Assembly: GCA_964348725.1 (NCBI GenBank)
Contig: CAYGDG010000003.1
Span: 30,775-94,774 of the forward strand
Reading direction: 5' to 3'
DNA: 64,000 bases
Origin: an uncultured Candidatus Saccharibacteria bacterium
Lineage (GTDB): Bacteria; Patescibacteriota; Minisyncoccia; Phycocordibacterales; UBA9973
Positions 2,569 to 26,862 of the stretch are shown here, in pieces. Every line of letters begins with the position of its first letter. Position 1 is the stretch's first letter. The notes under the pieces are model-generated. The model saw only the letters and a program-made list of their open reading frames with translations, ran no database searches and had not been told where the DNA came from. The position numbers and the translations under genes were made by a program.

Positions 2569-3945
2569 TTATAATGCGATCTCCCAGAGTTTGAAATCTT
2601 TCTTATTAATGAAGAAGAGATATTTCTCAGCTTCGTCGAGAGCGAGCTTGATGCCGTCCGCATCCTCGCCTGCCAGCGTGTAGACATCCGCGATCACAGT
2701 GTATGTGCCGGTCTTTACATCTATCTTCCAGATGCTATCGGAAAAAGATATTTCATCCCGGTACCAGGCGTCCGGATATTCATCATTCAGTACGAACTTC
2801 GGCACGGCGCAATAGAGCGTCTCGGAGAGCTTGCCCCAGACACATTTCTCCGGTAATGTCTTGGCCGGCAGAACTTGCGTGTTTCCGGTGCCTGTATCAT
2901 ATAAGTACAGAGTAAGGTCCCTGTTTCCATAGGCTATGAGGCGTCCGGACGGGCTGGTGAGCGTGGTCAGACCGGGTATTCCACCTAATATCTTATTGAA
3001 ATCTTTCAGGTTCGGGTCTATGCCGTACATATAGCCTGGCACGTTCGCGGAAGGCTTGGTGGTAAGTGTTACCATCCGACTGTTCGGCCACTCAGAGAGC
3101 CACTCAGTGAAAGGAGAATCGAAGAGCTGGATCCTCTTTTCTCCGGCAAGTCCTGCAGAAATGCCCACGGCATTTGTACCGGAAGAGAAGATGTAGAACA
3201 TGCGCGAGGTGTCCCGAGATATGGTCATGTCAGAGATGTTTTCTGGTAAAAAGATTCCCTTCAGAGAAGTGTTTGCCGAATCTGCACCAAGAACTTCCTT
3301 TGGCAGGATACCCGCAAATGTCTCGATGGTCCGTCCGTCTGTTTTCAGATAGCGGAAAATCACTGAATCGCCGTGATTGCCAAAAAATGCTTCATGGATC
3401 TGCGGGATGATAGTGGTGGTGAATTTGCGCTCATCCAGCTTATCAGCAAATGCCTGATAGATATTGCCAGTCGCTCTCTCGGCGTAACGCAGAGCAGGAA
3501 CGAATTCCGTCGGCGGAGCGATAGGTTTTACCACAGCAGCTTGAGAAGCGGTACCTGCGGCATCGGTAGAGGCAGGTTCGATGACCGGAATGATCACCGG
3601 CAGTTCCTTGAATCTTTCTTTCTGGAAGATGATGTATCCGGCGATCGATAGGTCGGAAACTTTTCTCAACTTGGCTGCCGGAGCTTCGGTCGCAGGGGCA
3701 GGTTCAAAGCCGGAAATGTCCGTCGGTTCGGTCGCAGTAGGCAGTTCGTTGTTCGTACCGCCAAAAGGCCATATTTGAGAAAGGAAATTTGTTCCGGCCG
3801 TGCTTCCCACAGTACCGGTCTTGTCAGTGGTATTATAAAAATATAAAAAGCCGAAAGCTATAGCCGTGGCGGCGATGAGGATGATAATAAGAAGTTTTAG
3901 ATTTCGTGGTGACATAATTATTTTCCGTCGTATGACCAGTGCCAA
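2569..3945 (-). CDS. Membrane-anchored protein with C-terminal beta-propeller-like region (last gene of T4SS-like operon); likely true start at Met 3915
   Basis: 458 aa ORF; N-terminal TM (LLIIILIAATAIAFGFLYF), low-complexity linker, repetitive beta-strand-rich C-terminus; alternative ATG at 3915 removes overlap with upstream gene. Confidence 0.5.
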   Translation of the reverse strand: MALVIRRKIIMSPRNLKLLIIILIAATAIAFGFLYFYNTTDKTGTVGSTAGTNFLSQIWPFGGTNNELPTATEPTDISGFEPAPATEAPAAKLRKVSDLSIAGYIIFQKERFKELPVIIPVIEPASTDAAGTASQAAVVKPIAPPTEFVPALRYAERATGNIYQAFADKLDERKFTTTIIPQIHEAFFGNHGDSVIFRYLKTDGRTIETFAGILPKEVLGADSANTSLKGIFLPENISDMTISRDTSRMFYIFSSGTNAVGISAGLAGEKRIQLFDSPFTEWLSEWPNSRMVTLTTKPSANVPGYMYGIDPNLKDFNKILGGIPGLTTLTSPSGRLIAYGNRDLTLYLYDTGTGNTQVLPAKTLPEKCVWGKLSETLYCAVPKFVLNDEYPDAWYRDEISFSDSIWKIDVKTGTYTVIADVYTLAGEDADGIKLALDEAEKYLFFINKKDFKLWEIAL

Positions 3946-5162
3946 GGCTCTGAAGCCAAATTATACATCTTATAAGTGGCCGCGTTATTTTTCAGCCAGA
4001 CGAAACATTTATTGTCTTGCGCCCCGATGCTCTGGCCTTCACAGGTGAAGTCGATGGCGAGGCCCGCTTCGTGCCTGGAAGTGCCGGGGTATGCGGTAGG
4101 CGGATTGCATTTCGCGCTCTGGTTATATATGGCAGATTGCCCGCCGCAGTGCTGGGATCGCAAGGATTCCTGCGCTTGCTTTGATCGGTATGTTCCGCCG
4201 GCCAGCTTGATCTGCGGTGTTGTCGCCCATGCCGCATCTATCAATTTTTTCAGGTTGGCCGAAATGCTCTTGCATGCCCAGAAGGTGCCTCCTGAAGTGC
4301 TGATCTGTTCGAATCCTTGAGTGCATAGTCCGTATGCTCCGCTCGGCGGCGTGCCGCTCGAGCTGGACGTCATACCGTAAATTTCACGTTCGTCCCCTAT
4401 CGTGACTGACGCTTCCGGTAGTTTGCCTAGGCCCACGTCGAGCAGGTCCGAATTCAAGGTGTTGAGGATGGCGTATGCGCCGAGAGCCAAGATGAGTCCG
4501 AGAACGGCATTCGTTATCTTGCTCTTCCCGTCCGCTTTTTCAGACACCAGCTCGCTGGTCATGTATTCTATGCCGCCTACCACTATCATGATCATGGCAA
4601 GGGCCGCGCAAATGCCTATGATCACATTTATCATGATGTTGAGGTATGCCCCGAAGCCGGACGCTGTATCCACCACTCCGTCTTTGCCGACTTTTGGAAT
4701 TGGCGCCAGCAATGTATAGTCCGTCTCGGTGTCTGTCCGTGTCACGTCACCGGAGAGTATGGTCGGGTTCGCTAACCCCCCCACCTTCTGCGCTATAGTT
4801 CCTGTTTTATCCTCCACGACTACTGATACACTGTATGTTTTTCCGGAATCCAGAATGCTGCCGGTATTATATTCGGCATGATTACCCTGTATTTTCTTAA
4901 TTACCGACTGCCCGACCTGTTTGTTCGGTTCCCCTTCTTTTTTTTCATATAAAAATACGACCGCATCTGTGTTGTCCGCTGTTCCTTCGGTGTCTATGTT
5001 CACTACCCAAGTCCACTTCTGGGTGGAAAAATTCTGATTCTGAGCGCCCATGGAAAGATTCACTTTTGTCGTAGCTGCGTTCACGGAAGCGGTAAGCGCT
5101 CCGAAAGCGACCAATACGGCCAGAGAAAAAATAACTATTTTTTTGTTCTTAAAAAGTGACAT
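3918..5162 (-). CDS. Fusion protein: secreted N-domain + VirB2/TrbC-like 2-TM hairpin + C-terminal peptidase M15 (D-Ala-D-Ala carboxypeptidase-like cell-wall hydrolase)
   Basis: Signal peptide; hydrophobic hairpin YLNIMINVIIGICAALAMIMIVVGGIEYM-loop-TNAVLGLILALGAYAILNTL; C-terminal SRHEAGLAIDF and EPWHWSY motifs typical of LAS/M15 metallopeptidases. Confidence 0.6.
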   Translation of the reverse strand: MSLFKNKKIVIFSLAVLVAFGALTASVNAATTKVNLSMGAQNQNFSTQKWTWVVNIDTEGTADNTDAVVFLYEKKEGEPNKQVGQSVIKKIQGNHAEYNTGSILDSGKTYSVSVVVEDKTGTIAQKVGGLANPTILSGDVTRTDTETDYTLLAPIPKVGKDGVVDTASGFGAYLNIMINVIIGICAALAMIMIVVGGIEYMTSELVSEKADGKSKITNAVLGLILALGAYAILNTLNSDLLDVGLGKLPEASVTIGDEREIYGMTSSSSGTPPSGAYGLCTQGFEQISTSGGTFWACKSISANLKKLIDAAWATTPQIKLAGGTYRSKQAQESLRSQHCGGQSAIYNQSAKCNPPTAYPGTSRHEAGLAIDFTCEGQSIGAQDNKCFVWLKNNAATYKMYNLASEPWHWSYDGK

Positions 5163-6117
5163 CGATCTGTTTTTCGCGATTTAAAAATAATCTTTTGAGA
5201 TTTTTGACCGTGAGGCGTATGCGGGCACTGCCTTCGCTGCCTGATTCCGGCTTTATTCCTATCTCGTTCTTCACATCGGAAGAAATGGGAGCTCCGTTCA
5301 GATACCAGGACATCTGAAGGTCCGGAGATTCCAGATCCTTCGGCGAAAAGAAATATGGTTCGGCACTGATTATGGCTCCTCCTTCGGGTATGAAAAATCC
5401 GTTCCCGATGGCGCGTGGCAGATGTTGTCCGGAAATAGGATCTTTGGCATAAAAAGTTATATGTGGTTCGGAGGGGCGGACCGTAGTCGTGCCCGTACCG
5501 ATGCCATTGCCTGCGAGGTCAGATACGGTGACATTGATCTCATTCTCAGTTTCCAAATAGGTATTCTTGAAAGTGTATGAGCTCTTGCCAAAACCGGAAA
5601 AAGTGACTGATGTCTTGCCGTCCTGCTCCCAGCGATAAGCGAAGTTCTTGGCGCTGCCGTTCGCCGGTATTGCCACTATCTTGTATGAGCCTTCGGTGGG
5701 AACAAGCGCTTTGCCTTTATAGAAAGGCGGCACATATGAGTCTACTCCTTGCCAGAGCAGATCTATGGCGGCCGGGCTGATGGCGATCGTCTTCTCGATG
5801 AGAGAGCCGTCCGCCGCTTCTATCCGTGCTTGGAGCAGTGTGCGTGACCCTGCGGCTGGGGCGGTAAAGGAAAAACTTTTCTGCCCGAATGCCTCTATCA
5901 TTACCCGTCCGTCGAGCAGCCACGTGATACGCGCGCGATCAAGATCGGAAGCGTATGTGGAGAGTGCTGCGGACACCGATTCGTTCGGCCGCGGATATCT
6001 CGGAGTGAGCGACAAAGAAACATCGCCGCTCTGTATCTGAGCCAAAGCGGAGAGTATAGGCAATGCGAAAAAAGCGATTGCGAGGACCACGACCGACATT
6101 TGTAACTTGGCGTACAT
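5149..6117 (-). CDS. Secreted/anchored protein, three beta-sandwich-like repeats (possible VirB8-position protein)
   Basis: 322 aa; N-terminal hydrophobic segment VVVLAIAFFALPILSALA; position downstream of VirB4 as in Gram-positive T4SS operons. Confidence 0.4.
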   Translation of the reverse strand: MYAKLQMSVVVLAIAFFALPILSALAQIQSGDVSLSLTPRYPRPNESVSAALSTYASDLDRARITWLLDGRVMIEAFGQKSFSFTAPAAGSRTLLQARIEAADGSLIEKTIAISPAAIDLLWQGVDSYVPPFYKGKALVPTEGSYKIVAIPANGSAKNFAYRWEQDGKTSVTFSGFGKSSYTFKNTYLETENEINVTVSDLAGNGIGTGTTTVRPSEPHITFYAKDPISGQHLPRAIGNGFFIPEGGAIISAEPYFFSPKDLESPDLQMSWYLNGAPISSDVKNEIGIKPESGSEGSARIRLTVKNLKRLFLNREKQIDVTF

Positions 6118-6138
6118 CGGCTATATTATATCACGCTC

Positions 6139-7980
6139 TTACCCTCGAGGCACAGTCTGGGCATCCGCTAATTCCTGCTTGGCCTTCTTGATGGAAAGGA
6201 TCTGCGAGGGGTCAGAGGTGATTATCTGATCTTCAGTGTATGAGGAAATGACTTTGATGGCGACGTGTTTCAGGCCGGCAAAGAATATGCCCTCTCCCAC
6301 GCCGGATTCCAGCAGGAGGTATTTCTCTTCATCGGTCAGATTAAATGTCTTTTGCAGGATGTCGATAGTAGATGGAGACTGCTTGAGGAGTATCTGGATG
6401 CTGGAGTTTGTAACGATCGGCACGCCGTACGGACTCTTCATGAAGTCAGCCGCGTCCTGAGTGATGGTGGCCAGGCCGAGGAAGTATTTGCGTCCGCGCT
6501 TGGCGATGGAGTACAAGAATGACGCAGTATCTTCTGATTTCATCATCCACCACGCTTCGTCCACCACAAGTAATCTTTTCTTCAGATTTTTTCTGACGGC
6601 ATTCCAGATGTAATGCGTGACGATGTACATGGCGATCGGCTTCAATTCATCTTCCATGTCGCGCACGGAGAAGACGACGAATTTCTTGTTGATATCGACG
6701 TTCGAGGGTTTGTTCAAGAATGTAGACCACGAGCCGCGCGTATATTTCACAAGACGCTGCACGACGGAGTCCGAACCTTCCATGCCGGAGAGCACCATCT
6801 CGAAGTCGGAAAGGAGTGGCGGTTCGATATTGGAAAAGTCAGATTCGGGCGTGATGTCTTTTATCGCATACGTTTCTGAAATGGCGCGGTCCACCATGGA
6901 GTCCTCTTCCGGCGTGAGCCCGCCGAGCATGAGACGGAACAGACCCACGAGGTTGATGATGTTCGAGCGGAGCACATCCGCTGCTGTTTCGTCTTCACGC
7001 GGGATCGGCAGGTCAAACGGATTAATGTGGTGTTCGGATGAGAGCGAAATATTGAAATAGCGTCCGCCGACGGCTTCAGCCAGGTATTCGTATTCTCGTT
7101 CCGGGTCGATGACGATGACGTCAGTGTCGAACATGAGCGAGCGTAGGATCTCGAGCTTCGTGGCATAGGATTTTCCGGAGCCGGATTTAGCGAAGGTGAC
7201 AGAGTTGTAGTTCTCCAGAGAGAAGCGGTCAAAAATAACAAGCGAAGAATTGTGCCGATTCACCCCATAGAGGATTCCTTTGTCGGACGTAAGGTCGAAA
7301 GAAACAAATGGAAAGATCGAAGAGAGTGGAGCAGAATTTAATTTCTGATGCACCGCAAGGACGTCGCTGCCGATCGGGATGACGCTCTTGAAACCTTCGT
7401 CCTGCTGGAATAGGGCCGGCTTTATGTATATGAGCTTTGATTCGAGCATGGATTTTATCTCATTCTCTATCTTGAAGAGCTCGAGCTCATTGTCGGCATA
7501 TACGGTGATGTACAGGCCCACATCGAACATTTTTTCCTGCGCTTGCATGAGGCTGTCGCGCAGGTTTTCGAGATCCTGATATGCCGTATCGAGCATCGGA
7601 TCGCGCACCATGCCCTTCCCTTCGCGTACGGCTATCTGGCTCTGCACCTCGGCTACTTTTTTCTGGAACTGGCGCAAGGCAAGCGAAGTGTCTATCGGGT
7701 GTATGAAGATCGAAACATCGAATATCTTATCGAGATTTATGATGGGCGAGAACCAATTGTCTGTCAAAAACCTCGGATACGAAATGATGAAGAATGTACG
7801 GGCTATCTTATCGCCGAGGTTCAAGGACTTTGGTTCGATCTTCAGAGCTGAAGGAGCGATGACATCCTGGAGCTCGAGCGTGGCGGATTCGTAGATTTCT
7901 TCCGGAAGCACGGCCAAGACGGACGCTCGCGCGTCGCTCTCTTTCGGTCTTCTTCCTAAAATTTTATCTAAAAGTGACAT
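6139..7980 (-). CDS. virB4: VirB4/TrbE/PrgJ-like T4SS ATPase, C-terminal ATPase part
   Basis: 613 aa; Walker A FAKSGSGKSYAT, Walker B RLLVVDEAWWMM (DEAW typical of VirB4), ATITQ motif. Confidence 0.8.
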   Translation of the reverse strand: MSLLDKILGRRPKESDARASVLAVLPEEIYESATLELQDVIAPSALKIEPKSLNLGDKIARTFFIISYPRFLTDNWFSPIINLDKIFDVSIFIHPIDTSLALRQFQKKVAEVQSQIAVREGKGMVRDPMLDTAYQDLENLRDSLMQAQEKMFDVGLYITVYADNELELFKIENEIKSMLESKLIYIKPALFQQDEGFKSVIPIGSDVLAVHQKLNSAPLSSIFPFVSFDLTSDKGILYGVNRHNSSLVIFDRFSLENYNSVTFAKSGSGKSYATKLEILRSLMFDTDVIVIDPEREYEYLAEAVGGRYFNISLSSEHHINPFDLPIPREDETAADVLRSNIINLVGLFRLMLGGLTPEEDSMVDRAISETYAIKDITPESDFSNIEPPLLSDFEMVLSGMEGSDSVVQRLVKYTRGSWSTFLNKPSNVDINKKFVVFSVRDMEDELKPIAMYIVTHYIWNAVRKNLKKRLLVVDEAWWMMKSEDTASFLYSIAKRGRKYFLGLATITQDAADFMKSPYGVPIVTNSSIQILLKQSPSTIDILQKTFNLTDEEKYLLLESGVGEGIFFAGLKHVAIKVISSYTEDQIITSDPSQILSIKKAKQELADAQTVPRG

Positions 7981-7986
7981 ATATTA

Positions 7987-8631
7987 TTACGCGTTCGTTA
8001 GGTCTATTTTACCTTCTATTTCTCCCGGATTGAAGACCTTGTAGAAAACTTCCACGATCTCTTCTGTGCCGAGCTCGACGGACTTGATGCCGGCGCTGGC
8101 CAGTCCCTGAGAGATGACCGCTACTCGCTGCTCGAGCTGCGAACGCTTCTCTTCGAAATCCGCGGCCGCGGCCGCTTTGACTTCTTCGCGGTTCTTGCGG
8201 GAAAATATTCCTTTCAGCATGCCGGTGTCGGCGGAAAATTCTTTCGGCGTATACGGCACGACCACGAAGAATGTCTTGGTCATGATATTTACCGTCTCGG
8301 TAAAATTCTTGATGAATTCCATATACTCGCGCGTCTGTACTTTCAGGAGTGGTTCATTCTGCACCTTCATCCTGTTCTCGAGAAGCAGCAAGTATGGCCG
8401 GATGTCGAGCTTCCTCGACTGCACGACTATCTGCACGGAGAAATCGAGCGTGTTCAGGAAGTTCTGGAACTGCATGATGGTGGCCTTCTGTTCATCTTCA
8501 GACTTGAGCGAAAGGTTCACTGAATTCGCGAGGACGACAGAGCGCAGCCCGCCGTCTTTCAAAACGACCACGCCGTCGCGGACTTCTTTGATAGGTACGA
8601 AATCTTGAGTTGCTCTCGCTTGTATGGCCAT
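7987..8631 (-). CDS. VirB4-like N-terminal domain protein (split from ATPase part by in-frame TAA TAA)
   Basis: 214 aa; DFVPIKEVRDGVVVLKDGGLRSVVL... resembles N-terminal domain of PrgJ/TcpF-type VirB4; same reading frame as 6139..7980, separated by TAA TAA TAT. Confidence 0.6.
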   Translation of the reverse strand: MAIQARATQDFVPIKEVRDGVVVLKDGGLRSVVLANSVNLSLKSEDEQKATIMQFQNFLNTLDFSVQIVVQSRKLDIRPYLLLLENRMKVQNEPLLKVQTREYMEFIKNFTETVNIMTKTFFVVVPYTPKEFSADTGMLKGIFSRKNREEVKAAAAADFEEKRSQLEQRVAVISQGLASAGIKSVELGTEEIVEVFYKVFNPGEIEGKIDLTNA

Positions 8632-8635
8632 AGTA

Positions 8636-9061
8636 TTATTCTACCTCATTTTGCGAATCTTTTTTCGTGTCCAGCACGTCCAAGCTCCAAGCCAGATCAC
8701 GCAATCGGCTCGCGCCCAGCTTTGGCGCGGGTATGGCACTTGCAAGAGAGGCCGCTTCTTTGGCTTTCTCACCTTTTTCTTTCCGTCTTCTCTTCCAGAT
8801 GTAGAGCTTGTCCGTGGCGGCGTAGCGGATGCTGGCCTCGAGCATATTTATGAATGGCTTATTGTTCGGACGGTAAAAAGTGAGCGCGAGCGAAAAGCCG
8901 GCAATAATGAGCATAGGAATCAATCCCCAGAAAAAGCCGAGCAGTTTATACAGGATGAAGCAAAGCCCTCCGCCGCCGGCGAGATAGACGAATTGGCGGA
9001 AAGTGAACGGGCCGAAGATCTTATCTTCGATGTCGATGAATTGTGGCACTTTGAATTGCAT
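8636..9061 (-). CDS. PrgI/VirB3-like small 2-TM protein
   Basis: 141 aa; two TM helices (LAGGGGLCFILYKLLGFFWGLIPMLIIAGFSLALTFY) then basic tail; sits immediately upstream of VirB4 as prgI-prgJ. Confidence 0.5.
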   Translation of the reverse strand: MQFKVPQFIDIEDKIFGPFTFRQFVYLAGGGGLCFILYKLLGFFWGLIPMLIIAGFSLALTFYRPNNKPFINMLEASIRYAATDKLYIWKRRRKEKGEKAKEAASLASAIPAPKLGASRLRDLAWSLDVLDTKKDSQNEVE

Positions 9062-9064
9062 ATT

Positions 9065-9835
9065 TTATTGCGGTATTTCTCGATACGGGTCTATTTGTGG
9101 TGCCGGGACGGGAGCTACGGCAGGTGCCTGCGGGCTGACAGAAACCGGCGTCTTGGAAATATTGCTCAAGGAATACTCTGTCTTTACCGTCGGCAGTTGG
9201 AAAGAGCCGGAGAGCTTCGAAATCGGTATGGAAGAGACCGAAGAAAGAATTTTTTCATTTTGTTTTGGCGTGCTTATTGTCTCGGGATGTTCCACTTTTG
9301 TCAGCATGTCTTCACGTTTTTCCATCGGAGCCGCTGCAGATATTTGAGGGGGGAGAACGGGAGATGGGGTAATATTGATGCCGACGGATTTCAATACGTC
9401 TGTCTCAGCTGTTTTCAGATCGGGTCTTGGTATTGTCGCCGCCGCCGGGCGGACAGATGGAATCGGCTCTTCTCTCACCTGAATTTTCTTCTTTTCCGTG
9501 AGCTTCATCAGTTCTTGGCGGATCTTCTTGAAAACGAGCTCGTTCATTTCATTTACCAGCTCGTCAGCCTTGGCACGCGGAATTTTCATTCGAGCCGAAA
9601 GTTCCGCCGGAAAATTTTCCGGTGACAGCAAGCCGCACAGCAATAATTCAGTTTCCACGCCGAGGTCTTCGATCTGTTCGAAGCTGAAGCCCTTTTTCTC
9701 ACGCATCGAGAGGACGATGCCGCGCCAATCTACCGCTTGTATCGCGTCGCGTGTAGCCTCTGGTAAAGCGGCTTTCGCCTTATCTATTTTTATCTGTAGA
9801 AGGTCAAGTTCTGCCATCTTTCTATTATATAACAA
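9065..9835 (-). CDS. Hypothetical protein, paralog A (shared ~90-aa N-domain with next gene, Pro/Ser-rich C-terminus)
   Basis: 256 aa; N-domain LPEATRDAIQAVDWRGIVL...ELVNEMNELVFKKIRQEL aligns with N-domain of 9825..10319 product. Confidence 0.45.
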   Translation of the reverse strand: MLYNRKMAELDLLQIKIDKAKAALPEATRDAIQAVDWRGIVLSMREKKGFSFEQIEDLGVETELLLCGLLSPENFPAELSARMKIPRAKADELVNEMNELVFKKIRQELMKLTEKKKIQVREEPIPSVRPAAATIPRPDLKTAETDVLKSVGINITPSPVLPPQISAAAPMEKREDMLTKVEHPETISTPKQNEKILSSVSSIPISKLSGSFQLPTVKTEYSLSNISKTPVSVSPQAPAVAPVPAPQIDPYREIPQ

Positions 9836-10319
9836 ATTTACTTTTTATGTCTTCTATTTTTGAAGGCGGCACGATGGCTCGTATGGTGTCCGTGAAATCT
9901 TTCGAGACCACGTGTTTTTTCATGAGTACGCCATAGTCTCCGCCGGAGAGGATGAAATCGAGCGATTCGCGCCATGTCCACTCCTTGGCGACTGAATTAT
10001 TTTTTATCGTCTCTCGAATTTTATTCGCGATAGGGACGAATACTTGCGCAAGAAGTTCCTGTGCCACTATCTCCGCTTGGTTTCTCGGGATCCCCACTTC
10101 GTCTTCTATATTCATGGCAATATCCTGCGGATATGCGAGGCCGGTCATTACCAGCACCGTTTCTATTGCCAAGTTATCAATATCTTGTTCCAGTAGACCG
10201 TGAGAATTTCCGACGGCAGTTATTTGTGCGAGCCAGTCAAAAGAATGTACCGCGTCCAAAGACTCCTTTGGTAAGGTCTTGAGCTGTTCGTTGATTTTAT
10301 TTTTTAATTCTTCAGTCAT
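9825..10319 (-). CDS. Hypothetical protein, paralog B
   Basis: 164 aa; LPKESLDAVHSFDWLAQITAV...EIVAQELLAQVFVPIANKIRETI homologous to paralog A; 11-nt overlap with it. Confidence 0.45.
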   Translation of the reverse strand: MTEELKNKINEQLKTLPKESLDAVHSFDWLAQITAVGNSHGLLEQDIDNLAIETVLVMTGLAYPQDIAMNIEDEVGIPRNQAEIVAQELLAQVFVPIANKIRETIKNNSVAKEWTWRESLDFILSGGDYGVLMKKHVVSKDFTDTIRAIVPPSKIEDIKSKFVI

Positions 10320-10324
10320 ATTTT

Positions 10325-12709
10325 TTAGTGATCAGGCGCATGTGCTCCTGCGGGTGCCGGAGCGTGGGCTTCGGCCGGTGCGGCGTGCCCATGATCCCCG
10401 TGGTCATCATCTCCCCCGTGATCTCCATGACCATCCTTCGGCGGCTTCATACCCATCCTGATGTTGTGTGACGCGTTGCGGTCTGAGCTTGCGCTGCCGC
10501 CAGTCATGACACTGATAGTTTGGTGAAGTCCACTGCCCACTCTGTCTGCCTCTTTATCTCTTCTATTGTAGTTCTTGAGCTCGATCGCATGTTCGGCGTG
10601 GTGGACAGACTCTTCCATGTCTTTCAGTGTGTTATCTCCTGACTTATATTCTTTAGCTGAGTAATTTTTGTCGACAGTAATGATATTTCCATCTATATCC
10701 TGATATTCATCTTTGAACGCCTGACCAGTCTTCAGTGCATCTTTCTGTTTCTTGAATACTTTGAGCTGGTCTCCGTATACCGCCAATGCGTCTCTCTTCT
10801 TAGCTTTATCCTCGTCAGTCAGATTCGGCATCAGGTTTGCATCCTTCAGGTTCTGTCGAGCTGCCTCGAGCTGCTTGTCGATTTTCGCCACTTCCGTATT
10901 AGTAGTCATCTGCAAGGCACGTAGATCGGTCTGCAGCTTGTTCAATTCCTGCTTCTCTTTTTCATTATCGCCGACTTCCAAATCCTTTGCTCTCTTCAGG
11001 CGCTTTGCTTCCTGGCGTTCTTTCATGCCGGCAAAGCCTCCTTGCGCCGGCTTGCCTACGCCTTTTACTAGGCCGGTGCCGCGGACATCAAATGAAGCAG
11101 CCCCGAGCGCTCCGCCTGCACCCTGTAATCCTCGTATTGCCCAACCATAGTATTTATTGCTGGACAGATCTTTCAGCTTGCCGCTGTCCGCGGCCATCTG
11201 GCCGAGTCTTCCGATGGTGGAGCGCCCCGCGAGAGCATATGCGCCGAGCGCGCCGCCGACGGCGAGTCCTGCCACGCCGCTGCCGATTTTTGACATTGCC
11301 GCGCCGATCTCACCAGACATTTTCTGGGCTATTTCTTTTGCCTTGGTAAGAAGGATAAAGATGATGGCGAATGGGATGATAGTCTTCATGAATTTATCCA
11401 TGTAATCAGTCGAATTGCCGATGTCGTATGTGATGAGGCTGAAGAAATCTCCGAACAGGATGATGACATACAGGAAGAAGATGAAGACAGGCGCGAGGAA
11501 TGCGTTCTTGAGTAGATTGCTCAGCCACTCTTCCCAGCCGAAACCCGGAATGTGCACGTGAGGCAAAGTTTTGGAAGCGAAAGCGATTGGCGCGAATATC
11601 ATGGAAAGCCACAGGGCGACCACTCGGCCGACAAAGAGCATGGCGACCGAGAAGAATATATATGCCATGAATGCCATGATGGCGGAAGACAGCAAAGTGA
11701 CGAAAATGAACAGCCCGATATTGCCGGCATAGTTATCCTGGGTGATGACGTTCTGAGGGTTGAAAGGTTTGGTGAGTCCGAGGGAGATGGATTTTTCACC
11801 CGCCGAGTTAGCCGGGAGCGGATTTCCATTGCTGTCGACGGCTTTGATGTTGTTGTAAAAAACTTTCGCCAATATGTTCGAGCCGTCTATCAGTACCTGG
11901 GTGAAGAACAGGCTGAAGTTTATGAGCAGCGCCACGATGATGATGGAGCTGATGGCTTTCTTTGCCCCGTGCCCAAGGTTCAGAATGGTCTGTATCGCTA
12001 TATATAGAAGAGATACGATAAAGAATATGTTGGCGATGTCGCGCACTGCTCCCCATGCCTTGCGGATGAATTCGCTCGAATATGAACTGCTGTTCGTGGA
12101 ATAATAGACAAAGAAGTCGAGTATTTTGGCGGCCAGTCTGGCGAATGCGGCCAAAGGTTCCCAGAATATGGTGTAAACTATGGCAGCCAAACAGCCCTTT
12201 ACTCCTTCAATACTGAGCTTACACTCAAAGCTGTAACCGTCCGACGGAATATTCGATGGCATGCTGGTGCCTTCTGCGGCAGCTTGGAATCCTGTATCCG
12301 TCTGTTGCGACCCTGATCCGTCGCCGTTAAAATTTACTGCATTGGATATCGTATTCGAGGGATTAGTGCTCGCGAGGATTCTGTATTTTTTGCTCGCTTG
12401 AAAATTGTATTCTACGAGTAAGCTAACTGTCTGTTCAGTGCCGGCATCGCTCACCTGCGATGTAAAATTGGTATGCTTTACGGAATTGACGAGCCCGGCT
12501 TCATCATATTGGAGAAGATTCAGATCAAACGCGTCTCCCGCTTTTGGACCCAAAATTTTTATTTTGAAAGTTCCGGAATTCGGCGTGATGTCAGCAGGTT
12601 GTATCGGCTGTATTTCCAGAGCGGTGACCGCGTGTGCTGTCCCGATCGGCGCTATGAAAATGCCGAGCGCGATCACCGATATCAAAATGTATGAAAAAAG
12701 CCTTTTCAT
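10325..12709 (-). CDS. VirB6/TrbL-like polytopic membrane protein with N-terminal secreted domain, C-terminal coiled coil and His/Asp-rich tail
   Basis: 794 aa; signal peptide, ~7 TM helices, Gly-rich GSGVAGLAVGGALGAYALAGRSTIGRLG segment typical of TrbL/VirB6, tail HGDHGGDDDHGDHGHAAPAEAHAPAPAGAHAPDH. Confidence 0.5.
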   Translation of the reverse strand: MKRLFSYILISVIALGIFIAPIGTAHAVTALEIQPIQPADITPNSGTFKIKILGPKAGDAFDLNLLQYDEAGLVNSVKHTNFTSQVSDAGTEQTVSLLVEYNFQASKKYRILASTNPSNTISNAVNFNGDGSGSQQTDTGFQAAAEGTSMPSNIPSDGYSFECKLSIEGVKGCLAAIVYTIFWEPLAAFARLAAKILDFFVYYSTNSSSYSSEFIRKAWGAVRDIANIFFIVSLLYIAIQTILNLGHGAKKAISSIIIVALLINFSLFFTQVLIDGSNILAKVFYNNIKAVDSNGNPLPANSAGEKSISLGLTKPFNPQNVITQDNYAGNIGLFIFVTLLSSAIMAFMAYIFFSVAMLFVGRVVALWLSMIFAPIAFASKTLPHVHIPGFGWEEWLSNLLKNAFLAPVFIFFLYVIILFGDFFSLITYDIGNSTDYMDKFMKTIIPFAIIFILLTKAKEIAQKMSGEIGAAMSKIGSGVAGLAVGGALGAYALAGRSTIGRLGQMAADSGKLKDLSSNKYYGWAIRGLQGAGGALGAASFDVRGTGLVKGVGKPAQGGFAGMKERQEAKRLKRAKDLEVGDNEKEKQELNKLQTDLRALQMTTNTEVAKIDKQLEAARQNLKDANLMPNLTDEDKAKKRDALAVYGDQLKVFKKQKDALKTGQAFKDEYQDIDGNIITVDKNYSAKEYKSGDNTLKDMEESVHHAEHAIELKNYNRRDKEADRVGSGLHQTISVMTGGSASSDRNASHNIRMGMKPPKDGHGDHGGDDDHGDHGHAAPAEAHAPAPAGAHAPDH

Positions 12710-12739
12710 TTATTATGTTGTAATTTTAGCACAAAAAAA

Positions 12740-14149
12740 CTATCTTTTGGTGAAATAATACTCGTAACCGTATGCGTTGCGTGTGGTGGAAGTCATCGTC
12801 TGAATGCTTATGATCCTGCTGTAATAATACTCATATACAGTAAGGCGGCCATTCAAGAATGCCAATTGATATGCCGCCACATCCGGCTCGGAGACGCGTA
12901 TTTCTCTGCCCGCGGTATTTATATAGCCGAAGCTGCGCGCATAAAAGTGCGCAAGTGTCCAAGCAAAAGTCTGCAGGTCTTGCCGCCCGTCCCAACCATA
13001 CGCGCGCGCCAAGGCTTCGTTCCCAGCTATTTGTCTCTGAAATACAGTCTCGATTCCTTCGTGGTAGCGGACTACTGCATCTATCGGCGGAATAACATTT
13101 TGTCCCAAGACGAACGGGCCGTTGGGATTCAAATTTCCATTACTTCCGTTATTCCCATTGTTTCCATTGTTCTGATTATTCCCATTTCCTCCCGACGTAG
13201 TATTTCCGCCGCCGTTATTGTTCACTCCCCCGCCTCCGCCATCATTTACTCCGCCGCCATCATTATTTACCGGAGTATCTCCACCCCCACCGATACCTCC
13301 GCCGACATATGTGCCTCCGCCGCCTGTGCCGTTGCAATTTTCATCGTCATCATCACCGCATGGAGCCTGGTACGGCTGTCCGCCGGGCGTTCCTCCGGGA
13401 TTCGTATTTCCCGGTGAAGCGGTAGTGAAGGACAGAACACCTCCGTAATACGTAGTGCCTCCGCTTGCCGCCGCCGCGCGGAATTCATATTGCGTGCCGG
13501 AAGTGAGACTATTGATGAGCGATACCATGTCTCCCGCGCCCGAGCTATGGCTTACGATTGAAGTTTTTTTCCAAGGCTCGCTGATATCGATTAGTAGCCC
13601 CCCAGCAGTCTCCGTCACTGGATTTATTTTTCTGTATTCGAACCACGTCGTCGAGACAGAAGTGGAATTGTAAGAACCGTTCACATACGAAGAGTCAGCG
13701 TCCACCACCAGGGCATCTTCGGTGATGACGGAAGTAGCGAAACAAGAGGCGCATGGAGTGGTGACGAATTCTTTCACATTGCCATAACGTATCTCGGTCC
13801 TACTGGAAGCGATGGCGCAGTAATAATATTTGGTGTTCGGCTCGAGCCCGGTGATTTTTTTAGAGAAGGAGGTGGTGCCGCCAGATCCGATATTCGTCTC
13901 TTTGGTATATTTCATGTCCGAACCGAAAACGTCATTACAGAACACGGGTGGGATATCGAGGGTCGCATAACGGAAATATCCGGAGCTCGGAAATCCTTCC
14001 GGATTAGCGGACCCGGAGAGAATGACCGAATTTTCCGTAATGGATGCAGCATTTCCGGTCAGGACGGAATTTATCGCCAGCGCCGAAAAGGGCATCCAGA
14101 GCAGGGCTGACATCGCTATTATATTTTTTATATTTTTTTGCATCTTCAA
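12740..14149 (-). CDS. Secreted protein: two FN3-like repeats, Gly/Asn-rich low-complexity linker, C-terminal GWDG-motif domain
   Basis: 469 aa; signal peptide; linker GGGGTYVGGGIGGGGDTPVNNDGGGVNDGGGGGVNNNGGGNTTSGGNGNNQNNGNNGNNGSNGN; C-terminal ALARAYGWDGRQDLQTFA. Confidence 0.5.
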   Translation of the reverse strand: MKMQKNIKNIIAMSALLWMPFSALAINSVLTGNAASITENSVILSGSANPEGFPSSGYFRYATLDIPPVFCNDVFGSDMKYTKETNIGSGGTTSFSKKITGLEPNTKYYYCAIASSRTEIRYGNVKEFVTTPCASCFATSVITEDALVVDADSSYVNGSYNSTSVSTTWFEYRKINPVTETAGGLLIDISEPWKKTSIVSHSSGAGDMVSLINSLTSGTQYEFRAAAASGGTTYYGGVLSFTTASPGNTNPGGTPGGQPYQAPCGDDDDENCNGTGGGGTYVGGGIGGGGDTPVNNDGGGVNDGGGGGVNNNGGGNTTSGGNGNNQNNGNNGNNGSNGNLNPNGPFVLGQNVIPPIDAVVRYHEGIETVFQRQIAGNEALARAYGWDGRQDLQTFAWTLAHFYARSFGYINTAGREIRVSEPDVAAYQLAFLNGRLTVYEYYYSRIISIQTMTSTTRNAYGYEYYFTKR

Positions 14150-16711
14150 TTAATATATTTGCAGCGTCCTTTCGAACACGCCGATCGTCTGCGAAGTCTT
14201 GTCTTGCTGCAGGTTAAAGAGATCGCTGACTCGCACATAAGTCGGGCCGCGGGGATTGCCTAAGCTGCCGCATTCTGCCGTATTTGCCAGGCCGAACTGC
14301 TCGTAGAAAGAGCAGAAGCTGGTGATGCTTGAAAGGTTTGCCAATGTCGGGATGGTGAAGACGGTAAATGAACTGGCTGAGAGGAATCCGGGGCCGCCTC
14401 CATTCGCTATGGCCGGCATGTTGTTCGTAATGCCCGCATTAAGCGGATCAGGAATTGCCGCTCCTGCAGCCAAGGTGTTGTAATCATACAATATGTCAAA
14501 AGGATAAGCTGGACGCTTGGTGTCGAGTATCTGCCATGGAGTATTACCAAGGTCATTTTCGCAGCCGGCCGCACCTTTCAGTAGGTCCTTGTAAACGTAA
14601 TTGGTTTTGTCGATTATTTCTCTCCACATGATATCTGCCGCGGCAATGTCATTGCCGGAGACCATGTCTATAGAGAGGCGGCCGAAAGCGCTGGTCCATG
14701 GCTGGAGCGCATTTTCATATGCGTCCTGTGAGAGTGAGCCGGAAGCGAGCTGGCTGTTGAGCGCATCAATTTTGTTCTTGATATTGATAAGTCGCTGCAC
14801 AATGCTTTTTTTGACTGCAATATTTGTCTTGTTGTCTTCGATTATCTTTTTATATCCCTCGGCTCGTAGGAATTCCGCTTCCGCTTCGCTGGCCACTCCC
14901 GGCTGGATGTCGCGGATGAATGTACTATTTACTGCAGTCACATATCGGTCAAATATCTTATCCAATTTTTCAACAACGCTTGAATAAGGAAGCAAGTTGT
15001 CGTCTCGTACTACAGCCAGGCCGGTAATGAGGCCGACGTATGCGGCGTAGAGTTTTTTAGAGTCATTCTCTCCGTCACCTATGCCGAGGGCGACACCTAT
15101 TTGATTTATCGGTCCACCAAATGCACCGGCCAGCTGGTGTACAGTATCCGGTGGAATAGTATCCACGTCCGGTATCTTGCTTTCGGCGGTTTCCAGAGCG
15201 ATCTGCGCTTCTTCTTCCCAATCCGGATGCGGACCAGGGATACAGTAGTCGAGCTGGTAGACTGTTTTAATGAGGTTCGGCAATGCCGCATTCTGCTGTT
15301 CAAGCTTGTCTATATATGTACGCTGCGTGTCTATCACCGCTTGGGAAAAGTCCGTACGGATATTGAAATCCGGATTATCCCGGAGCCAGGAACTTGCATT
15401 CAGCGCGGAGTCGGCAAAATCTTTTTCAGTTTGCCATTTGTCCGAGTCGCTTATGCCGAGCGAATCAAGCGAGAGTCTGTTGTCATTTTCAGTCAATGCG
15501 GCAAGGCCTTCGTTGGTCAGCTGAGCGGTGAATTTTGCGAGTAAGGCGTCAAGCACTGCGGCGATGGCGTCATTCAGATCTTGTGCTTCGAGCAAGGCGT
15601 CCTTTGGATAACCCACGGCATCTGTGGCCAAGCTGGCCACGATGGAGCCTGGTGTTACACTCTCCCATCTTTTACAGAGGCGAGGCGAGCCGGTCGGATA
15701 CATGTTCGAGCTACCGGCGAGAGCCGCATCGTGTTCTTCTTTGGTGACTCCTATCGGATCCGCGCAACGAGAATCTGGCAGCCATCCGCCCGCTGATTGC
15801 AGGCCTTTGTCGATCCATTGTGCGGTAGACATCTCTGTGCCGGCCAACCTGCCACTTAGTTCATTTGAAGCCAAGAGATTGAAACCAAGGGGATTGTTTG
15901 CTGGTATGATGGTCATCGCATTCCACGCTCCCCAGCCCCCTTGCGAAAAATCTTCACTGAAAGCAGCAGCGGTGTATTGCGGCGTAGTGTCGCGGATCAG
16001 CTTGTCTAAAGAAAACTGCGCGTTCTGGGCGAAGTGATTGTTGAAAGCATTGGCTTGTGCATAGAGGAATGCGCGGCCGAAAGGAAACTTATTCGCATCA
16101 TTTATCTCGAGCCCGAAGCCGAGGATCTCTTCTTTTGCGATATCACGGAAATATTTAGTGGATTGGACAAAGAATGACTGACCATTATTTCCGTTCCTGA
16201 TCCATTCTATGGTCGCCAAAGTTATTTTTTGCAGCAGCAATTTTATGACCATGCGGCCGATGGCTTCGGTGCAGGTAATTTTCTTCTTGATGGACTCGGT
16301 ATTTGTGTCGATATTGTCTATAGTTTGTCCTTGTTTTATTACTGCCGTATAGGTGGCCTCATCATGCACTCCGATATCGTCTACTGTGGCGGAACTCTCG
16401 GCAGATTTGCCGGAAAAACTGCCGTCTTCTAATCGAGGACCGATCTCTTTTTTGGCTTTCCTGAACAAGCCCTTTATCCCGCTGCCTATGGCCTTCTGGC
16501 ATTCCGGAAGCTTGGCGATAGTGGGCAAAAGACCTTTTACGTAGCCGTTGATATTTCCGCCGGAACTGGATCCGGTGGCACCGGAAGTGCCGGTCGAATT
16601 GCTACCGAAGACGCCGAATGTCTGAGCACTTACCAAGACAGGCGAAAGCAATATGCCCGCAAGCGTGAATATGACGACTATATTTTTAAAAATTATATTT
16701 GCTTTGCTCAT
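14150..16711 (-). CDS. Large secreted protein of unknown function
   Basis: 853 aa; N-terminal signal peptide IVVIFTLAGILLSPVLVSAQ; stop/start adjacent to neighbours. Confidence 0.5.
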   Translation of the reverse strand: MSKANIIFKNIVVIFTLAGILLSPVLVSAQTFGVFGSNSTGTSGATGSSSGGNINGYVKGLLPTIAKLPECQKAIGSGIKGLFRKAKKEIGPRLEDGSFSGKSAESSATVDDIGVHDEATYTAVIKQGQTIDNIDTNTESIKKKITCTEAIGRMVIKLLLQKITLATIEWIRNGNNGQSFFVQSTKYFRDIAKEEILGFGLEINDANKFPFGRAFLYAQANAFNNHFAQNAQFSLDKLIRDTTPQYTAAAFSEDFSQGGWGAWNAMTIIPANNPLGFNLLASNELSGRLAGTEMSTAQWIDKGLQSAGGWLPDSRCADPIGVTKEEHDAALAGSSNMYPTGSPRLCKRWESVTPGSIVASLATDAVGYPKDALLEAQDLNDAIAAVLDALLAKFTAQLTNEGLAALTENDNRLSLDSLGISDSDKWQTEKDFADSALNASSWLRDNPDFNIRTDFSQAVIDTQRTYIDKLEQQNAALPNLIKTVYQLDYCIPGPHPDWEEEAQIALETAESKIPDVDTIPPDTVHQLAGAFGGPINQIGVALGIGDGENDSKKLYAAYVGLITGLAVVRDDNLLPYSSVVEKLDKIFDRYVTAVNSTFIRDIQPGVASEAEAEFLRAEGYKKIIEDNKTNIAVKKSIVQRLINIKNKIDALNSQLASGSLSQDAYENALQPWTSAFGRLSIDMVSGNDIAAADIMWREIIDKTNYVYKDLLKGAAGCENDLGNTPWQILDTKRPAYPFDILYDYNTLAAGAAIPDPLNAGITNNMPAIANGGGPGFLSASSFTVFTIPTLANLSSITSFCSFYEQFGLANTAECGSLGNPRGPTYVRVSDLFNLQQDKTSQTIGVFERTLQIY

Positions 16712-25434: not shown

Positions 25435-25502
25435 ATATGTTTGATTGTATCAACTAAATACGTTATTTAATAACCTATTTTTACATTATACACCCAAAAG
25501 CT

Positions 25503-26855: not shown

Positions 26856-26862
26856 CTTACGG

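What the first reader, a model, noticed from the sequence alone, without database searches (positions are those of the whole stretch)
6139..8631. VirB4 split at the domain boundary by two consecutive in-frame TAA codons
The N-terminal VirB4 domain (7987..8631) and the ATPase domain (6139..7980) are in the same reading frame. They are separated only by TAA TAA TAT, followed by an ATG. This is not a frameshift and not a UGA recoding issue. It is either a natural two-subunit VirB4, a recent nonsense mutation, or a sequencing artefact. The ATG right after the stops and the intact downstream ORF favour a functional split.
Basis: seen in the sequence. Interest (0 to 1): 0.6.

Follow-up and report, generated by a model that had tools for sequence, protein, structure and literature searches.

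The report
Natural two-gene VirB4 (TrsD-like + ATPase)
The "broken" secretion-system ATPase is an ordinary, anciently conserved two-gene arrangement, already described in these ultra-small bacteria and in staphylococcal conjugative plasmids; the shared reading frame and double stop codon are coincidences.

Summary
The sequence facts hold. On the minus strand, ORF1 (8631..7987, 214 aa) ends in TAA TAA, followed by TAT and the ATG of ORF2 (7980..6139, 613 aa), all in one frame.

It is not a mutation, an artefact or recoding. In 78 of 80 species-level relatives an ORF1 homologue lies directly upstream of an ORF2 homologue, always separated by a stop. Spacers range from -4 to 497 nt and fall in all three relative frames (22 same, 34 +1, 22 +2). 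Three species carry a whole extra gene between the two ORFs. Both ORFs are under strong purifying selection.

ORF1 is a TrsD/TraD-like protein (Pfam "TraC-like") covering the first ~180-210 residues of a VirB4. ORF2 starts at position 183 of the fused-VirB4 profile, the same position as TrsE of Staphylococcus plasmid pSK41. A sister CPR clade (Colwellbacteria-like) encodes the colinear fused ~790-aa protein.

The break lies in a low-confidence linker inside the VirB4 N-terminal domain, not at the boundary with the ATPase domain.

The TrsD-plus-VirB4 pairing in Patescibacteria was published in 2025 (PMC12102498). The finding is real but already known, so interest is low.

The parts
8636..9061 (-). 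PrgI-family (VirB3-like) small membrane protein, 141 aa, immediately upstream. Its TAA stop at 8638-8636 lies 4 nt before the ORF1 ATG.
   Evidence: Pfam PF12666 PrgI, E 8.3e-10, 39.5 bits against a cutoff of 27. The same gene order PrgI -> ORF1 -> ORF2 is seen in L081, and PrgI -> fused VirB4 in L082.
7987..8631 (-). ORF1, 214 aa: a stand-alone TrsD/TraD-like protein (Pfam 'TraC-like') equal to the first sub-domain of the VirB4 N-terminal domain. The coordinates include the TAA stop at 7989-7987.
   Evidence: NCBIfam places it on the N-termini of VirB4 models (CD1110 positions 2-122 of 752; TIGR00929 positions 3-179 of 792) and on TrsD NF041427 at E 2.6e-6. PF26593 TraC-like is precomputed for it. 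It is 41% identical to residues 1-213 of the fused P0357. hhalign against pSK41 TrsD gives E 7.3e-5 over 167 columns. The AF2 model has pLDDT 75.6, and its top 12 PDB matches are all TrwK/VirB4 chains.
7981..7986 (-). 6-nt spacer TAATAT between the ORF1 stop and the ORF2 ATG. Its first triplet happens to be a second in-frame TAA.
   Evidence: Relatives have spacers from -4 to 497 nt, of which 42 of 78 are 10 nt or shorter, and AT-rich TAATAA-type spacers recur. No SD-like motif and no correctly spaced -10 box precede the ORF2 ATG.
6139..7980 (-). ORF2, 613 aa: a TrsE-like short VirB4, comprising the second N-terminal sub-domain plus the P-loop ATPase domain. The coordinates include the TAA stop at 6141-6139.
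   Evidence: NCBIfam conju_CD1110 scores 374.6 bits (cutoff 325), with residues 33-574 on profile positions 183-733 of 752. Pfam P-loop_TraG gives E 8.3e-25. The solved VirB4 C-terminal domain 4AG5 gives E 2.9e-39. Homologues are 88-94% identical and 596-638 aa long.
7873..7980 (-). ORF2 residues 1-36: an N-terminal extension lying before the conserved DVIAP motif. It replaces the ~16-residue linker of fused homologues. The start motif M-(S/G)-(I/L)-(F/L)-D is conserved in relatives.
   Evidence: The BLASTP alignment to the fused P0357 starts at ORF2 residue 37, matching P0357 residue 230. Conserved ATG contexts are ATGGGAATTTTTGAT, ATGTCAATATTTGAT and similar.
7285..7872 (-). ORF2 residues 37-232: the second sub-domain of the VirB4 N-terminal domain.
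   Evidence: This stretch aligns to P0357 residues 230-~425 and to TrsE residues 36 onward. In the AF2 model of the fused homologue the equivalent alpha/beta sub-domain spans ~235-415.
6217..7284 (-). ORF2 residues 233-588: the VirB4 C-terminal ATPase domain. Walker A (AKSGSGKSY) is at 7165-7191 and Walker B (LLVVDEAW) at 6550-6573.
   Evidence: phmmer to 4AG5_A aligns residues 233-588 to chain residues 8-388.

Best explanation
This is a natural, anciently fixed two-gene VirB4 in the chromosomal type IV secretion system of a Paceibacteria/Nomurabacteria-type CPR bacterium.

ORF1 is a stand-alone TrsD/TraD-like protein. It is the first alpha/beta sub-domain (about 200 residues) of the VirB4 N-terminal domain. 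ORF2 is a TrsE-like short VirB4, made of the second N-terminal sub-domain plus the P-loop ATPase domain.

Shown here:
- The two ORFs tile a full-length VirB4 without overlap.
- The break sits at the same profile position as the TrsD|TrsE break of Staphylococcus plasmid pSK41.
- It coincides with a low-confidence linker in the model of a fused homologue.
- Both genes are conserved as separate genes in every close relative examined.
- Both genes are under strong purifying selection.

Inferred, not shown:
- The two polypeptides reassemble non-covalently into a VirB4-like unit. By analogy with R388, where VirB3 wraps the VirB4 N-terminal domain and the N-terminal domains alone make the central-outer dimer contact, ORF1 would supply the membrane-proximal surface contacted by PrgI/VirB3, which is encoded immediately upstream.
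- In this genome ORF2 is most likely translated by termination-reinitiation or by AU-rich, non-SD initiation 6 nt after the ORF1 stop.

The shared reading frame and the second TAA are by-products of a short AT-rich spacer and have no function.
For: Tiling: ORF1 maps to CD1110 profile positions 2-122 and TIGR00929 positions 3-179. ORF2 maps to CD1110 positions 183-733, above the curated cutoff.

Fused relative: P0357 (797 aa; locus L082 reads PrgI -> fused VirB4) is colinear with the window genes. ORF1 residues 1-206 match P0357 residues 1-213 at 41% identity, and ORF2 residues 37-602 match residues 230-796 at 56%. P0357 matches TIGR00929 in one stretch, 17-750. Its model superposes on full-length TrwK/VirB4 with TM 0.62-0.66. 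Model pLDDT dips to 59-60 at residues 211-230, exactly where the window genes separate.

Same break as a known system: pSK41 TrsE begins at CD1110 position 183 (residue 30), as ORF2 does (residue 33). TrsE aligns to ORF2 from residue 36 to residue 39. The pSK41 gene order is PrgI-like, trsD, trsE.

Conservation: ORF1 has more than 7,900 homologues, and the top 120 are 211-222 aa long. Of the best 150 representatives at 50% clustering, 149 are not full-length fused VirB4; some are shorter and may be partial gene calls. Every one of 260 aa or more ends its homology to the fused P0357 at residues ~208-244 of that protein. All 78 species with an ORF1 homologue upstream on the same strand (of 80 loci) are split, in all three frames. 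A 23S_rRNA_IVP gene is inserted between the two genes in L055, L057 and L066.

Selection: pN/pS is 0.17-0.34 for ORF1 and 0.06-0.18 for ORF2, with synonymous sites saturated.

Literature: TrsD shares remote homology with the VirB4 N-terminus. There are 2,272 TrsD homologues in Patescibacteria, 1,664 of them next to virB4, and the homologue in S. epibionticum is essential (PMC12102498). VirB3 wraps the VirB4 N-terminal domain, and the dimer interface is made by the N-terminal domains (PMC9259494).
Against: No physical interaction between ORF1 and ORF2 (or PrgI) was tested, and no multimer prediction was available.

The link from ORF1 to TrsD is remote. It scores 27 bits against a family cutoff of 200, and pairwise BLASTP finds nothing.

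Structural support for ORF1 alone is specific but weak (Foldseek E 0.02-0.1, TMq 0.34-0.45).

Translational coupling cannot be general. Thirty-six of 78 relatives have spacers longer than 10 nt, many containing TATAAT boxes, and one (L037) has ORF1 on the opposite strand. Fixed 1:1 co-translation is therefore not required.

No function has ever been assigned experimentally to TrsD/TraD.
Confidence: 0.93

Rival explanations
1. A recent nonsense mutation or an incipient pseudogene: a formerly fused VirB4 was interrupted in this lineage.
For: The two ORFs are in the same frame, separated by only 9 nt. Fused ~790-aa homologues exist in another CPR clade.
Against: All 78 close relatives are split, in all three frames, with spacers up to 497 nt. 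The homologues of ORF1 and of ORF2 are uniformly short proteins. The ORF2 start motif is conserved. Both ORFs are under strong purifying selection. The closest fused proteins share only 41% and 56% identity with the two ORFs.
Confidence: 0.01
2. A sequencing or assembly artefact created the stop codons.
For: None beyond the general error rate of metagenome assemblies. Read data were not available.
Against: A Logan assembly from run ERR3094292 shows the identical junction. The same gene boundary occurs in 78 independent genomes.
Confidence: 0.005
3. Stop-codon readthrough or reassignment yields a fused protein alongside, or instead of, the two products.
For: The in-frame arrangement would allow it. 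Some CPR lineages recode UGA (general knowledge).
Against: The stops are TAA, which terminates 39 of 48 long ORFs in this window. Two consecutive stops make readthrough very unlikely. Fifty-six of 78 relatives are out of frame, and others have long spacers or an inserted gene, so a fused product cannot be a conserved feature.
Confidence: 0.01
4. ORF1 is an extra accessory paralogue of the VirB4 N-terminus that works alongside a complete VirB4, rather than being the missing piece of ORF2.
For: The literature treats TrsD as a separate T4SS component of unknown function. In Gracilibacteria, TrsD homologues are not linked to virB4.
Against: ORF2 lacks the region ORF1 supplies, since it begins at profile position 183 of 752. 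Fused homologues contain one copy of each part in the same order. No second ORF1-like region is detectable in ORF2: hhalign of the ORF1 family against ORF2 residues 37-232 gives E 0.3.
Confidence: 0.04

Closest known systems
TrsD + TrsE (TraD + TraE) of the pGO1/pSK41/pIP501 subclass of MPF_FATA conjugation systems
   Same: Both have a stand-alone protein of ~215-227 aa followed directly by a short VirB4 (613 vs 672 aa) and preceded by a PrgI/VirB3-like gene. The break point relative to fused VirB4 is identical: both ATPase genes start at CD1110 profile position 183. ORF1 is remotely homologous to TrsD over nearly its full length.
   Different: Sequence similarity is very low. ORF1 scores 27 bits against the 200-bit TrsD cutoff, and ORF2 is 23% identical to TrsE. 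The known systems are plasmid-borne conjugation systems of Bacillota. This one is a chromosomal, vertically conserved CPR system next to yidC/jag and ksgA, and no relaxase was identified among the gene products scanned near the cluster.
Patescibacteria T4SS as described by Quinonero-Coronel et al. 2025 (PMC12102498), with essentiality shown in Southlakia epibionticum (Wang et al. 2023, as cited there)
   Same: The component set matches: VirB4, a TrsD homologue adjacent to virB4, PrgI/VirB3 and VirB2-like pilins, in a location near housekeeping genes such as KsgA and RnpA. This window is one instance of that arrangement.
   Different: [quoted passage not shown] In the passages I read it does not state that the CPR VirB4 lacks that portion, that the break matches the TrsD|TrsE break, or that a CPR clade has the fused form.
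Full-length (fused) VirB4, e.g. TrwK of R388 (PDB 7O43, 8RTD), and the Colwellbacteria-type CPR VirB4 (P0357 family)
   Same: ORF1 and ORF2 together are colinear with these proteins. The fused CPR model matches TrwK over its whole length.
   Different: Those are one polypeptide; here there are two genes. A midpoint-rooted NJ tree places the fused CPR clade inside the stand-alone diversity, which suggests secondary fusion (tentative).
VirB3-VirB4 fusions (e.g. Campylobacter pVir; general knowledge, mentioned in PMC12102498)
   Same: They show that the covalent connectivity of the VirB3/VirB4 module varies between T4SSs.
   Different: The direction is opposite: fusion of neighbouring genes rather than fission. 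No such fusions were found in Patescibacteria.

Membership tests
VirB4-family T4SS ATPase (ORF2) | P-loop ATPase C-terminal domain with Walker A and Walker B motifs, homologous to solved VirB4 C-terminal domains | tested here: met
   Pfam P-loop_TraG E 8.3e-25. 4AG5 E 2.9e-39 over residues 233-588. GSGKS and DEAW motifs located.
VirB4-family T4SS ATPase (ORF2) | Score above the curated cutoff of a VirB4 family model | tested here: met
   NF045971 conju_CD1110 scores 374.6 bits against a cutoff of 325. It is below cutoff for TIGR00929 (109.8 vs 643).
VirB4-family T4SS ATPase (ORF2) | Complete N-terminal domain on the same polypeptide | tested here: not met
   ORF2 starts at profile position 183 of 752. 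The first ~180-210 residues are supplied by ORF1.
VirB4-family T4SS ATPase (ORF2) | Encoded next to a VirB3/PrgI-like gene and other T4SS genes | tested here: met
   PrgI at 8636..9061. A T4SS_pilin-VanY protein at 3918..5162.
TrsD/TraD family (NCBIfam NF041427) (ORF1) | HMM score above the curated cutoff (200 bits) | tested here: not met
   27.4 bits, E 2.6e-6, residues 7-125 on profile positions 14-142 of 201. This makes ORF1 a remote homologue, not a member of the staphylococcal/enterococcal subfamily.
TrsD/TraD family (NCBIfam NF041427) (ORF1) | Stand-alone protein of ~200-230 aa, immediately upstream of a short VirB4 and downstream of a PrgI-like gene | tested here: met
   Window gene order compared with pSK41.
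TrsD/TraD family (NCBIfam NF041427) (ORF1) | Homology to the N-terminal part of fused VirB4 | tested here: met
   plus (the top 12 fold hits are all TrwK/VirB4). The fused P0357 N-terminus also hits the TrsD model at E 8.5e-8.
Pfam PF26593 'TraC-like' (ORF1) | Match to the Pfam model | tested here: inconclusive
   The match is precomputed for the identical protein P0001 and for all listed homologues. My own scan of the local Pfam copy returned no family, apparently because that model is not in it.
Pseudogene / recent nonsense allele | Orthologues intact and fused; relaxed selection on the interrupted copy | tested here: not met
   78 of 78 orthologous loci are split. pN/pS is 0.34 or lower with pS saturated.
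Programmed readthrough / stop-codon recoding | Conserved in-frame relation of the two ORFs and a leaky or reassigned stop | tested here: not met
   Frames are 22/34/22. TAA is the main stop codon in the window. The stop here is tandem.
Functional two-subunit VirB4 complex | Physical association of the two polypeptides | not testable with these tools
   Needs co-purification, two-hybrid assays or multimer structure prediction.

The most novel reading that the evidence does not exclude
The VirB4 N-terminal domain has a hot spot for gene fission and fusion at one inter-sub-domain linker. The same break is used in CPR chromosomal T4SSs and in pGO1/pIP501-type plasmids, and it has been re-fused in a Colwellbacteria-like clade. 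Under this reading, releasing the first sub-domain as a free subunit is functionally exploited. It could set its stoichiometry independently of the ATPase (for example, only 'central' VirB4 positions carry it), or make it an assembly or regulatory adaptor between PrgI/VirB3 and the motor. Three observations hint at this: ORF2 appears to have its own promoter in many relatives, foreign genes are inserted between the two genes, and other lineages add long disordered P/Q-rich tails to the stand-alone subunit.
Probability: 0.2. Interest if true: 0.4.

Novelty: already known. Interest (0 to 1): 0.15.

Why it matters
For annotation, the pair should not be flagged as a pseudogene or merged. ORF1 ("hypothetical protein" in most records) can be named a TrsD-like VirB4 N-terminal subunit.

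For T4SS biology there is a small added point. TrsD plus the short VirB4 are complementary pieces with one conserved break point, shared by CPR and pGO1/pIP501 systems. Natural fused and split versions both exist within CPR. That offers a ready-made comparison for asking what the first VirB4 sub-domain does, which is still unknown for TrsD/TraD. None of this changes current understanding much.

Tried and rejected
- The local Pfam scan of ORF1 returned no family. The precomputed PF26593 model is evidently absent from that copy.
- The PDB sequence search with ORF1 gave only chance-level hits.
- Pairwise BLASTP of ORF1 against pSK41 TrsD found nothing. Only the HMM and profile methods see the relation.
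- I tested whether the two N-terminal sub-domains are a tandem duplication, which would make the split fall between repeats. hhalign of the ORF1 family against ORF2 residues 37-232 gives E 0.3, so this is unsupported at sequence level.
- A true dN/dS could not be computed because synonymous sites are saturated (pS 0.77-0.99). Only pN/pS bounds are given.
- I checked whether ORF1-family members of 260-443 aa represent an alternative split at the N-terminal domain/ATPase boundary. They do not. Most carry low-complexity P/Q/T-rich C-terminal tails, a few carry N-terminal extensions, and homology to the fused protein ends at its residues ~208-244 in all of them.
- The 600-aa proteins P0409 and P0505 inside the fused clade are not clean splits. 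Their loci have a deleted or frameshifted N-terminal region.
- The papers on pELF (PMC13492992) and pNP40 (PMC8194271) were irrelevant: their TraD is a VirD4, or no TrsD-like gene is discussed.
- Guglielmini et al. 2014 (PMC4027160) does not mention TrsD by name in its main text.
- One paper search failed on syntax.
Full report
1. THE OBSERVATION

On the minus strand, ORF1 runs 8631..7987 (214 aa) and ORF2 runs 7980..6139 (613 aa). The junction reads AAC GCG TAA TAA TAT ATG TCA. The stops are at 7989-7987 and 7986-7984, and the ATG is at 7980-7978. Translating 8631..6139 as one frame gives 831 codons interrupted only by the two adjacent stops. The coordinates, the double TAA, the TAT, the ATG and the shared frame are therefore exactly as described. 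An independent assembly of sequencing run ERR3094292 (Logan, locus L081) carries the identical ORF1 and the identical junction gcgTAATAATATATGtca.

2. WHAT THE TWO ORFS ARE

ORF2 is a VirB4-type ATPase.
- Pfam P-loop_TraG gives E 8.3e-25; AAA_10 and DUF87 also match.
- NCBIfam conju_CD1110 scores 374.6 bits against a cutoff of 325.
- The solved VirB4 C-terminal domain of Thermoanaerobacter (4AG5) gives E 2.9e-39, aligned to ORF2 residues 233-588.
- Walker A lies at residues 264-272 and Walker B at residues 470-477.

About 230 residues therefore precede the ATPase domain on ORF2 itself.

ORF1 has no hit in the local Pfam copy and no hit in the PDB by sequence. Other evidence identifies it:
- NCBIfam places it on the extreme N-terminus of full-length VirB4 models: CD1110 positions 2-122 of 752, VirB4_plasma positions 102-233 of 894, and TIGR00929 positions 3-179 of 792.
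- It also matches the stand-alone TrsD/TraD family NF041427 at E 2.6e-6, on positions 14-142 of 201.
- The database's precomputed annotation for the identical protein is PF26593 "TraC-like".

ORF2 begins at CD1110 position 183. The two ORFs thus tile one VirB4 with no overlap. The gene immediately upstream (9061..8636) is a PrgI-family, VirB3-like protein.

3. IS THE SPLIT REAL AND CONSERVED?

ORF1 has more than 7,900 database homologues. The best 120 (73-81% identical) are all 211-222 aa long. The best 120 homologues of ORF2 (88-94% identical) are all 596-638 aa long.

A scan of one genome per species found at least 590 relatives of ORF2. I examined the best 80 loci, which come from Nomurabacteria, Paceibacteria and Minisyncoccia MAGs.
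- In 78 of them an ORF1 homologue lies directly upstream on the same strand, and in all 78 a stop separates the two genes.
- Of the other two, L075 is cut by a contig end and L037 has ORF1 on the opposite strand.
- The spacer ranges from a 4-nt overlap to 497 nt. It is 10 nt or shorter in 42 loci, 11-100 nt in 29, and over 100 nt in 7.
- The relative frame is the same in 22 loci, +1 in 34 and +2 in 22.
- ORF1 ends in TAA in 58 loci, TAG in 15 and TGA in 5.
- A second in-frame stop follows directly in 10 loci.

In three species (L055, L057, L066) a complete 23S_rRNA_IVP gene sits between the two genes (PF05635, E 2e-19 to 2e-38).

Between the window and twelve relatives, synonymous sites are saturated (pS 0.77-0.99). 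Non-synonymous differences remain low: pN is 0.14-0.30 for ORF1 and 0.06-0.15 for ORF2.

In the window itself TAA terminates 39 of 48 long ORFs.

Together these results exclude a recent nonsense mutation, an assembly artefact, and readthrough or recoding. They also show that the shared frame and the TAA TAA pair are what a short AT-rich spacer yields by chance.

4. WHERE THE BREAK FALLS

An exhaustive HMMER search of 1.84 billion cluster representatives with ORF1 found 2,205 proteins at E <= 1e-3.
- Of the best 150, reaching down to 35% identity, 149 are not full-length VirB4.
- The 38 that are 260-443 aa long share homology with the fused protein P0357 only up to its residues ~208-244. Most then continue as low-complexity P/Q/T-rich tails; a few instead carry an N-terminal extension.
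- The single exception, P0357 (797 aa), is a fused VirB4.

P0357 aligns with the window genes as follows. ORF1 residues 1-206 match its residues 1-213 at 41% identity. ORF2 residues 37-602 match its residues 230-796 at 56% identity. It sits directly after a PrgI gene (L082). It matches TIGR00929 in one stretch, 17-750, and its N-terminus also hits the TrsD model.

Searching with P0357 shows that this fused form (775-807 aa) is the rule in a Colwellbacteria-like CPR clade: 116 of the 118 best non-self hits are fused.

An AlphaFold2 model of P0357 built on 118 sequences has pLDDT 74.8. It shows:
- a first alpha/beta sub-domain at residues 1-207, with a disordered loop at 131-156;
- a confidence dip to 59-60 at residues 211-230;
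- a second alpha/beta sub-domain at ~235-415;
- the ATPase domain after that.

The model superposes on full-length TrwK/VirB4 of R388 (8RTD, 7O43) with TM 0.62-0.66 over ~830-880 alignment columns.

A model of the window's ORF1 alone has pLDDT 75.6, and its last 12 residues are disordered. Its 12 best matches among 350,542 PDB chains are all TrwK/VirB4 chains. The scores are weak, however: E 0.02-0.1, probability 0.72-0.98, TMq 0.34-0.45.

The break is therefore in a linker between two sub-domains inside the VirB4 N-terminal domain. It is not at the boundary between the N-terminal domain and the ATPase domain. No sequence similarity between the two sub-domains was detectable.

5. COMPARISON WITH KNOWN SYSTEMS

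Staphylococcus plasmid pSK41 encodes, in order:
- a PrgI-like protein (25492-25899);
- trsD (227 aa, 25886-26569);
- a DUF87 protein, TrsE/TraE (672 aa, 26584-28602).

TrsE aligns with ORF2 from TrsE residue 36 to ORF2 residue 39. TrsE begins at CD1110 profile position 183, exactly as ORF2 does. The ORF1 family profile aligns with TrsD over 167 columns at E 7.3e-5, although pairwise BLASTP sees nothing. The window's arrangement therefore has the same architecture and the same break point as TrsD/TrsE, the TraD/TraE of the pGO1/pSK41/pIP501 subclass.

The literature already covers the CPR case. Quinonero-Coronel et al. [quoted passage not shown] They count 2,272 homologues, 1,664 of them associated with virB4. 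They assign it no function. They also note that the homologue in S. epibionticum ML1 is essential. They describe the T4SS as lying near housekeeping genes such as KsgA, RnpA and DnaA. That fits this window, where YidC and the R3H/Jag protein lie at 1300-2527 and KsgA at 18056-18883.

6. HOW IT MOST LIKELY WORKS

Shown: two separately encoded, separately conserved polypeptides that together make up one VirB4.

Inferred: they associate non-covalently to rebuild the N-terminal domain. [quoted passage not shown] The ORF1 subunit, encoded between PrgI/VirB3 and the motor, is therefore the likely membrane-proximal adaptor.

Expression (inferred): ORF2 has no SD-like motif and no correctly spaced -10 box, and its ATG lies 6 nt after the ORF1 stop. 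In this genome that points to reinitiation or AU-rich non-SD initiation. In relatives with longer spacers, TATAAT-like boxes appear upstream of ORF2, so coupling is not obligatory.

Evolution (tentative): a midpoint-rooted NJ tree of 114 N-sub-domain sequences puts the fused clade 10 nodes deep inside the stand-alone diversity. That suggests secondary fusion rather than an ancestral fused state.

7. VERDICT

The favoured interpretation, a functional split, is correct. The arrangement is ordinary for this lineage and already published, so novelty is "already known" and interest is low. The modest additions here are:
- explicit evidence that TrsD-like protein plus short VirB4 are complementary halves;
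- the shared break point with pSK41 TrsD/TrsE;
- the existence of a fused CPR clade;
- genes inserted between the two halves in three species.

Noticed in passing
window-wide, e.g. 6118-6138 upstream of the 322-aa gene 6117..5149 (GTGATATAATATAGCCG-ATG): Of 48 long ORFs, 14 have a -10-like hexamer ending 5-9 nt before the start codon, 8 of them TGn-extended. Control offsets give 0-6. Only about 6 of 48 have an SD-like motif. This suggests widespread leaderless or non-SD translation in this genome.
   Followed up: partly
L055:2999-3382, L057:3619-3990, L066:3565-3963: A 123-132-aa 23S_rRNA_IVP (four-helix-bundle) gene is inserted between the ORF1 and ORF2 homologues in three species. In L057 and L066 it is flanked by inverted repeats, so it looks like a small mobile insertion.
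   Followed up: partly
spacers of L014, L018, L026, L054, L045, L020 (about 50-80 nt upstream of position 4000, or the equivalent position): Several relatives have ORF1-ORF2 spacers made of short repeated or palindromic units (GGCnCTAGGC..., AGCTAAAAGCTA...). These resemble hairpin-forming repeat elements. Their function is unknown.
   Followed up: no
L037:2858-3923 vs 4001-5824: In one MAG (DALYDA010000004.1) the PrgI and ORF1 homologues lie on the opposite strand from ORF2, in the order ORF1 then PrgI. This is either a rearrangement or a misassembly.
   Followed up: no
window 3918..5162 (-): A 414-aa protein combines a T4SS_pilin (VirB2-like) segment at residues 179-235 with a C-terminal VanY D-Ala-D-Ala carboxypeptidase domain. 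This is a pilin/cell-wall hydrolase fusion two genes downstream of ORF2 (the 322-aa gene lies between).
   Followed up: no
proteins P0274, P0285, P0314, P0349, P0355 and others: In other CPR lineages the stand-alone TrsD-like protein carries disordered P/Q/T/N-rich C-terminal tails of up to ~230 residues.
   Followed up: partly
L084:1282-1775 and L085:1362-2178: Two MAGs of the otherwise fused (Colwellbacteria-like) clade have the N-terminal sub-domain region deleted or frameshifted around the disordered loop, which leaves 600-aa gene calls. These are either degraded copies or assembly errors.
   Followed up: partly
window 8624..9625 (+): A 333-aa ORF lies antisense to the PrgI gene and the 256-aa gene. 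It is almost certainly a spurious shadow ORF.
   Followed up: no
window 9065..16711 (-): Five consecutive minus-strand genes upstream of PrgI (256, 164, 794, 469 and 853 aa) have no family hit above a curated cutoff; only sub-threshold fn3 and Pur_ac_phosph_N matches appear in the 469-aa protein. They are presumably the uncharacterised CPR-specific part of the T4SS cluster.
   Followed up: no
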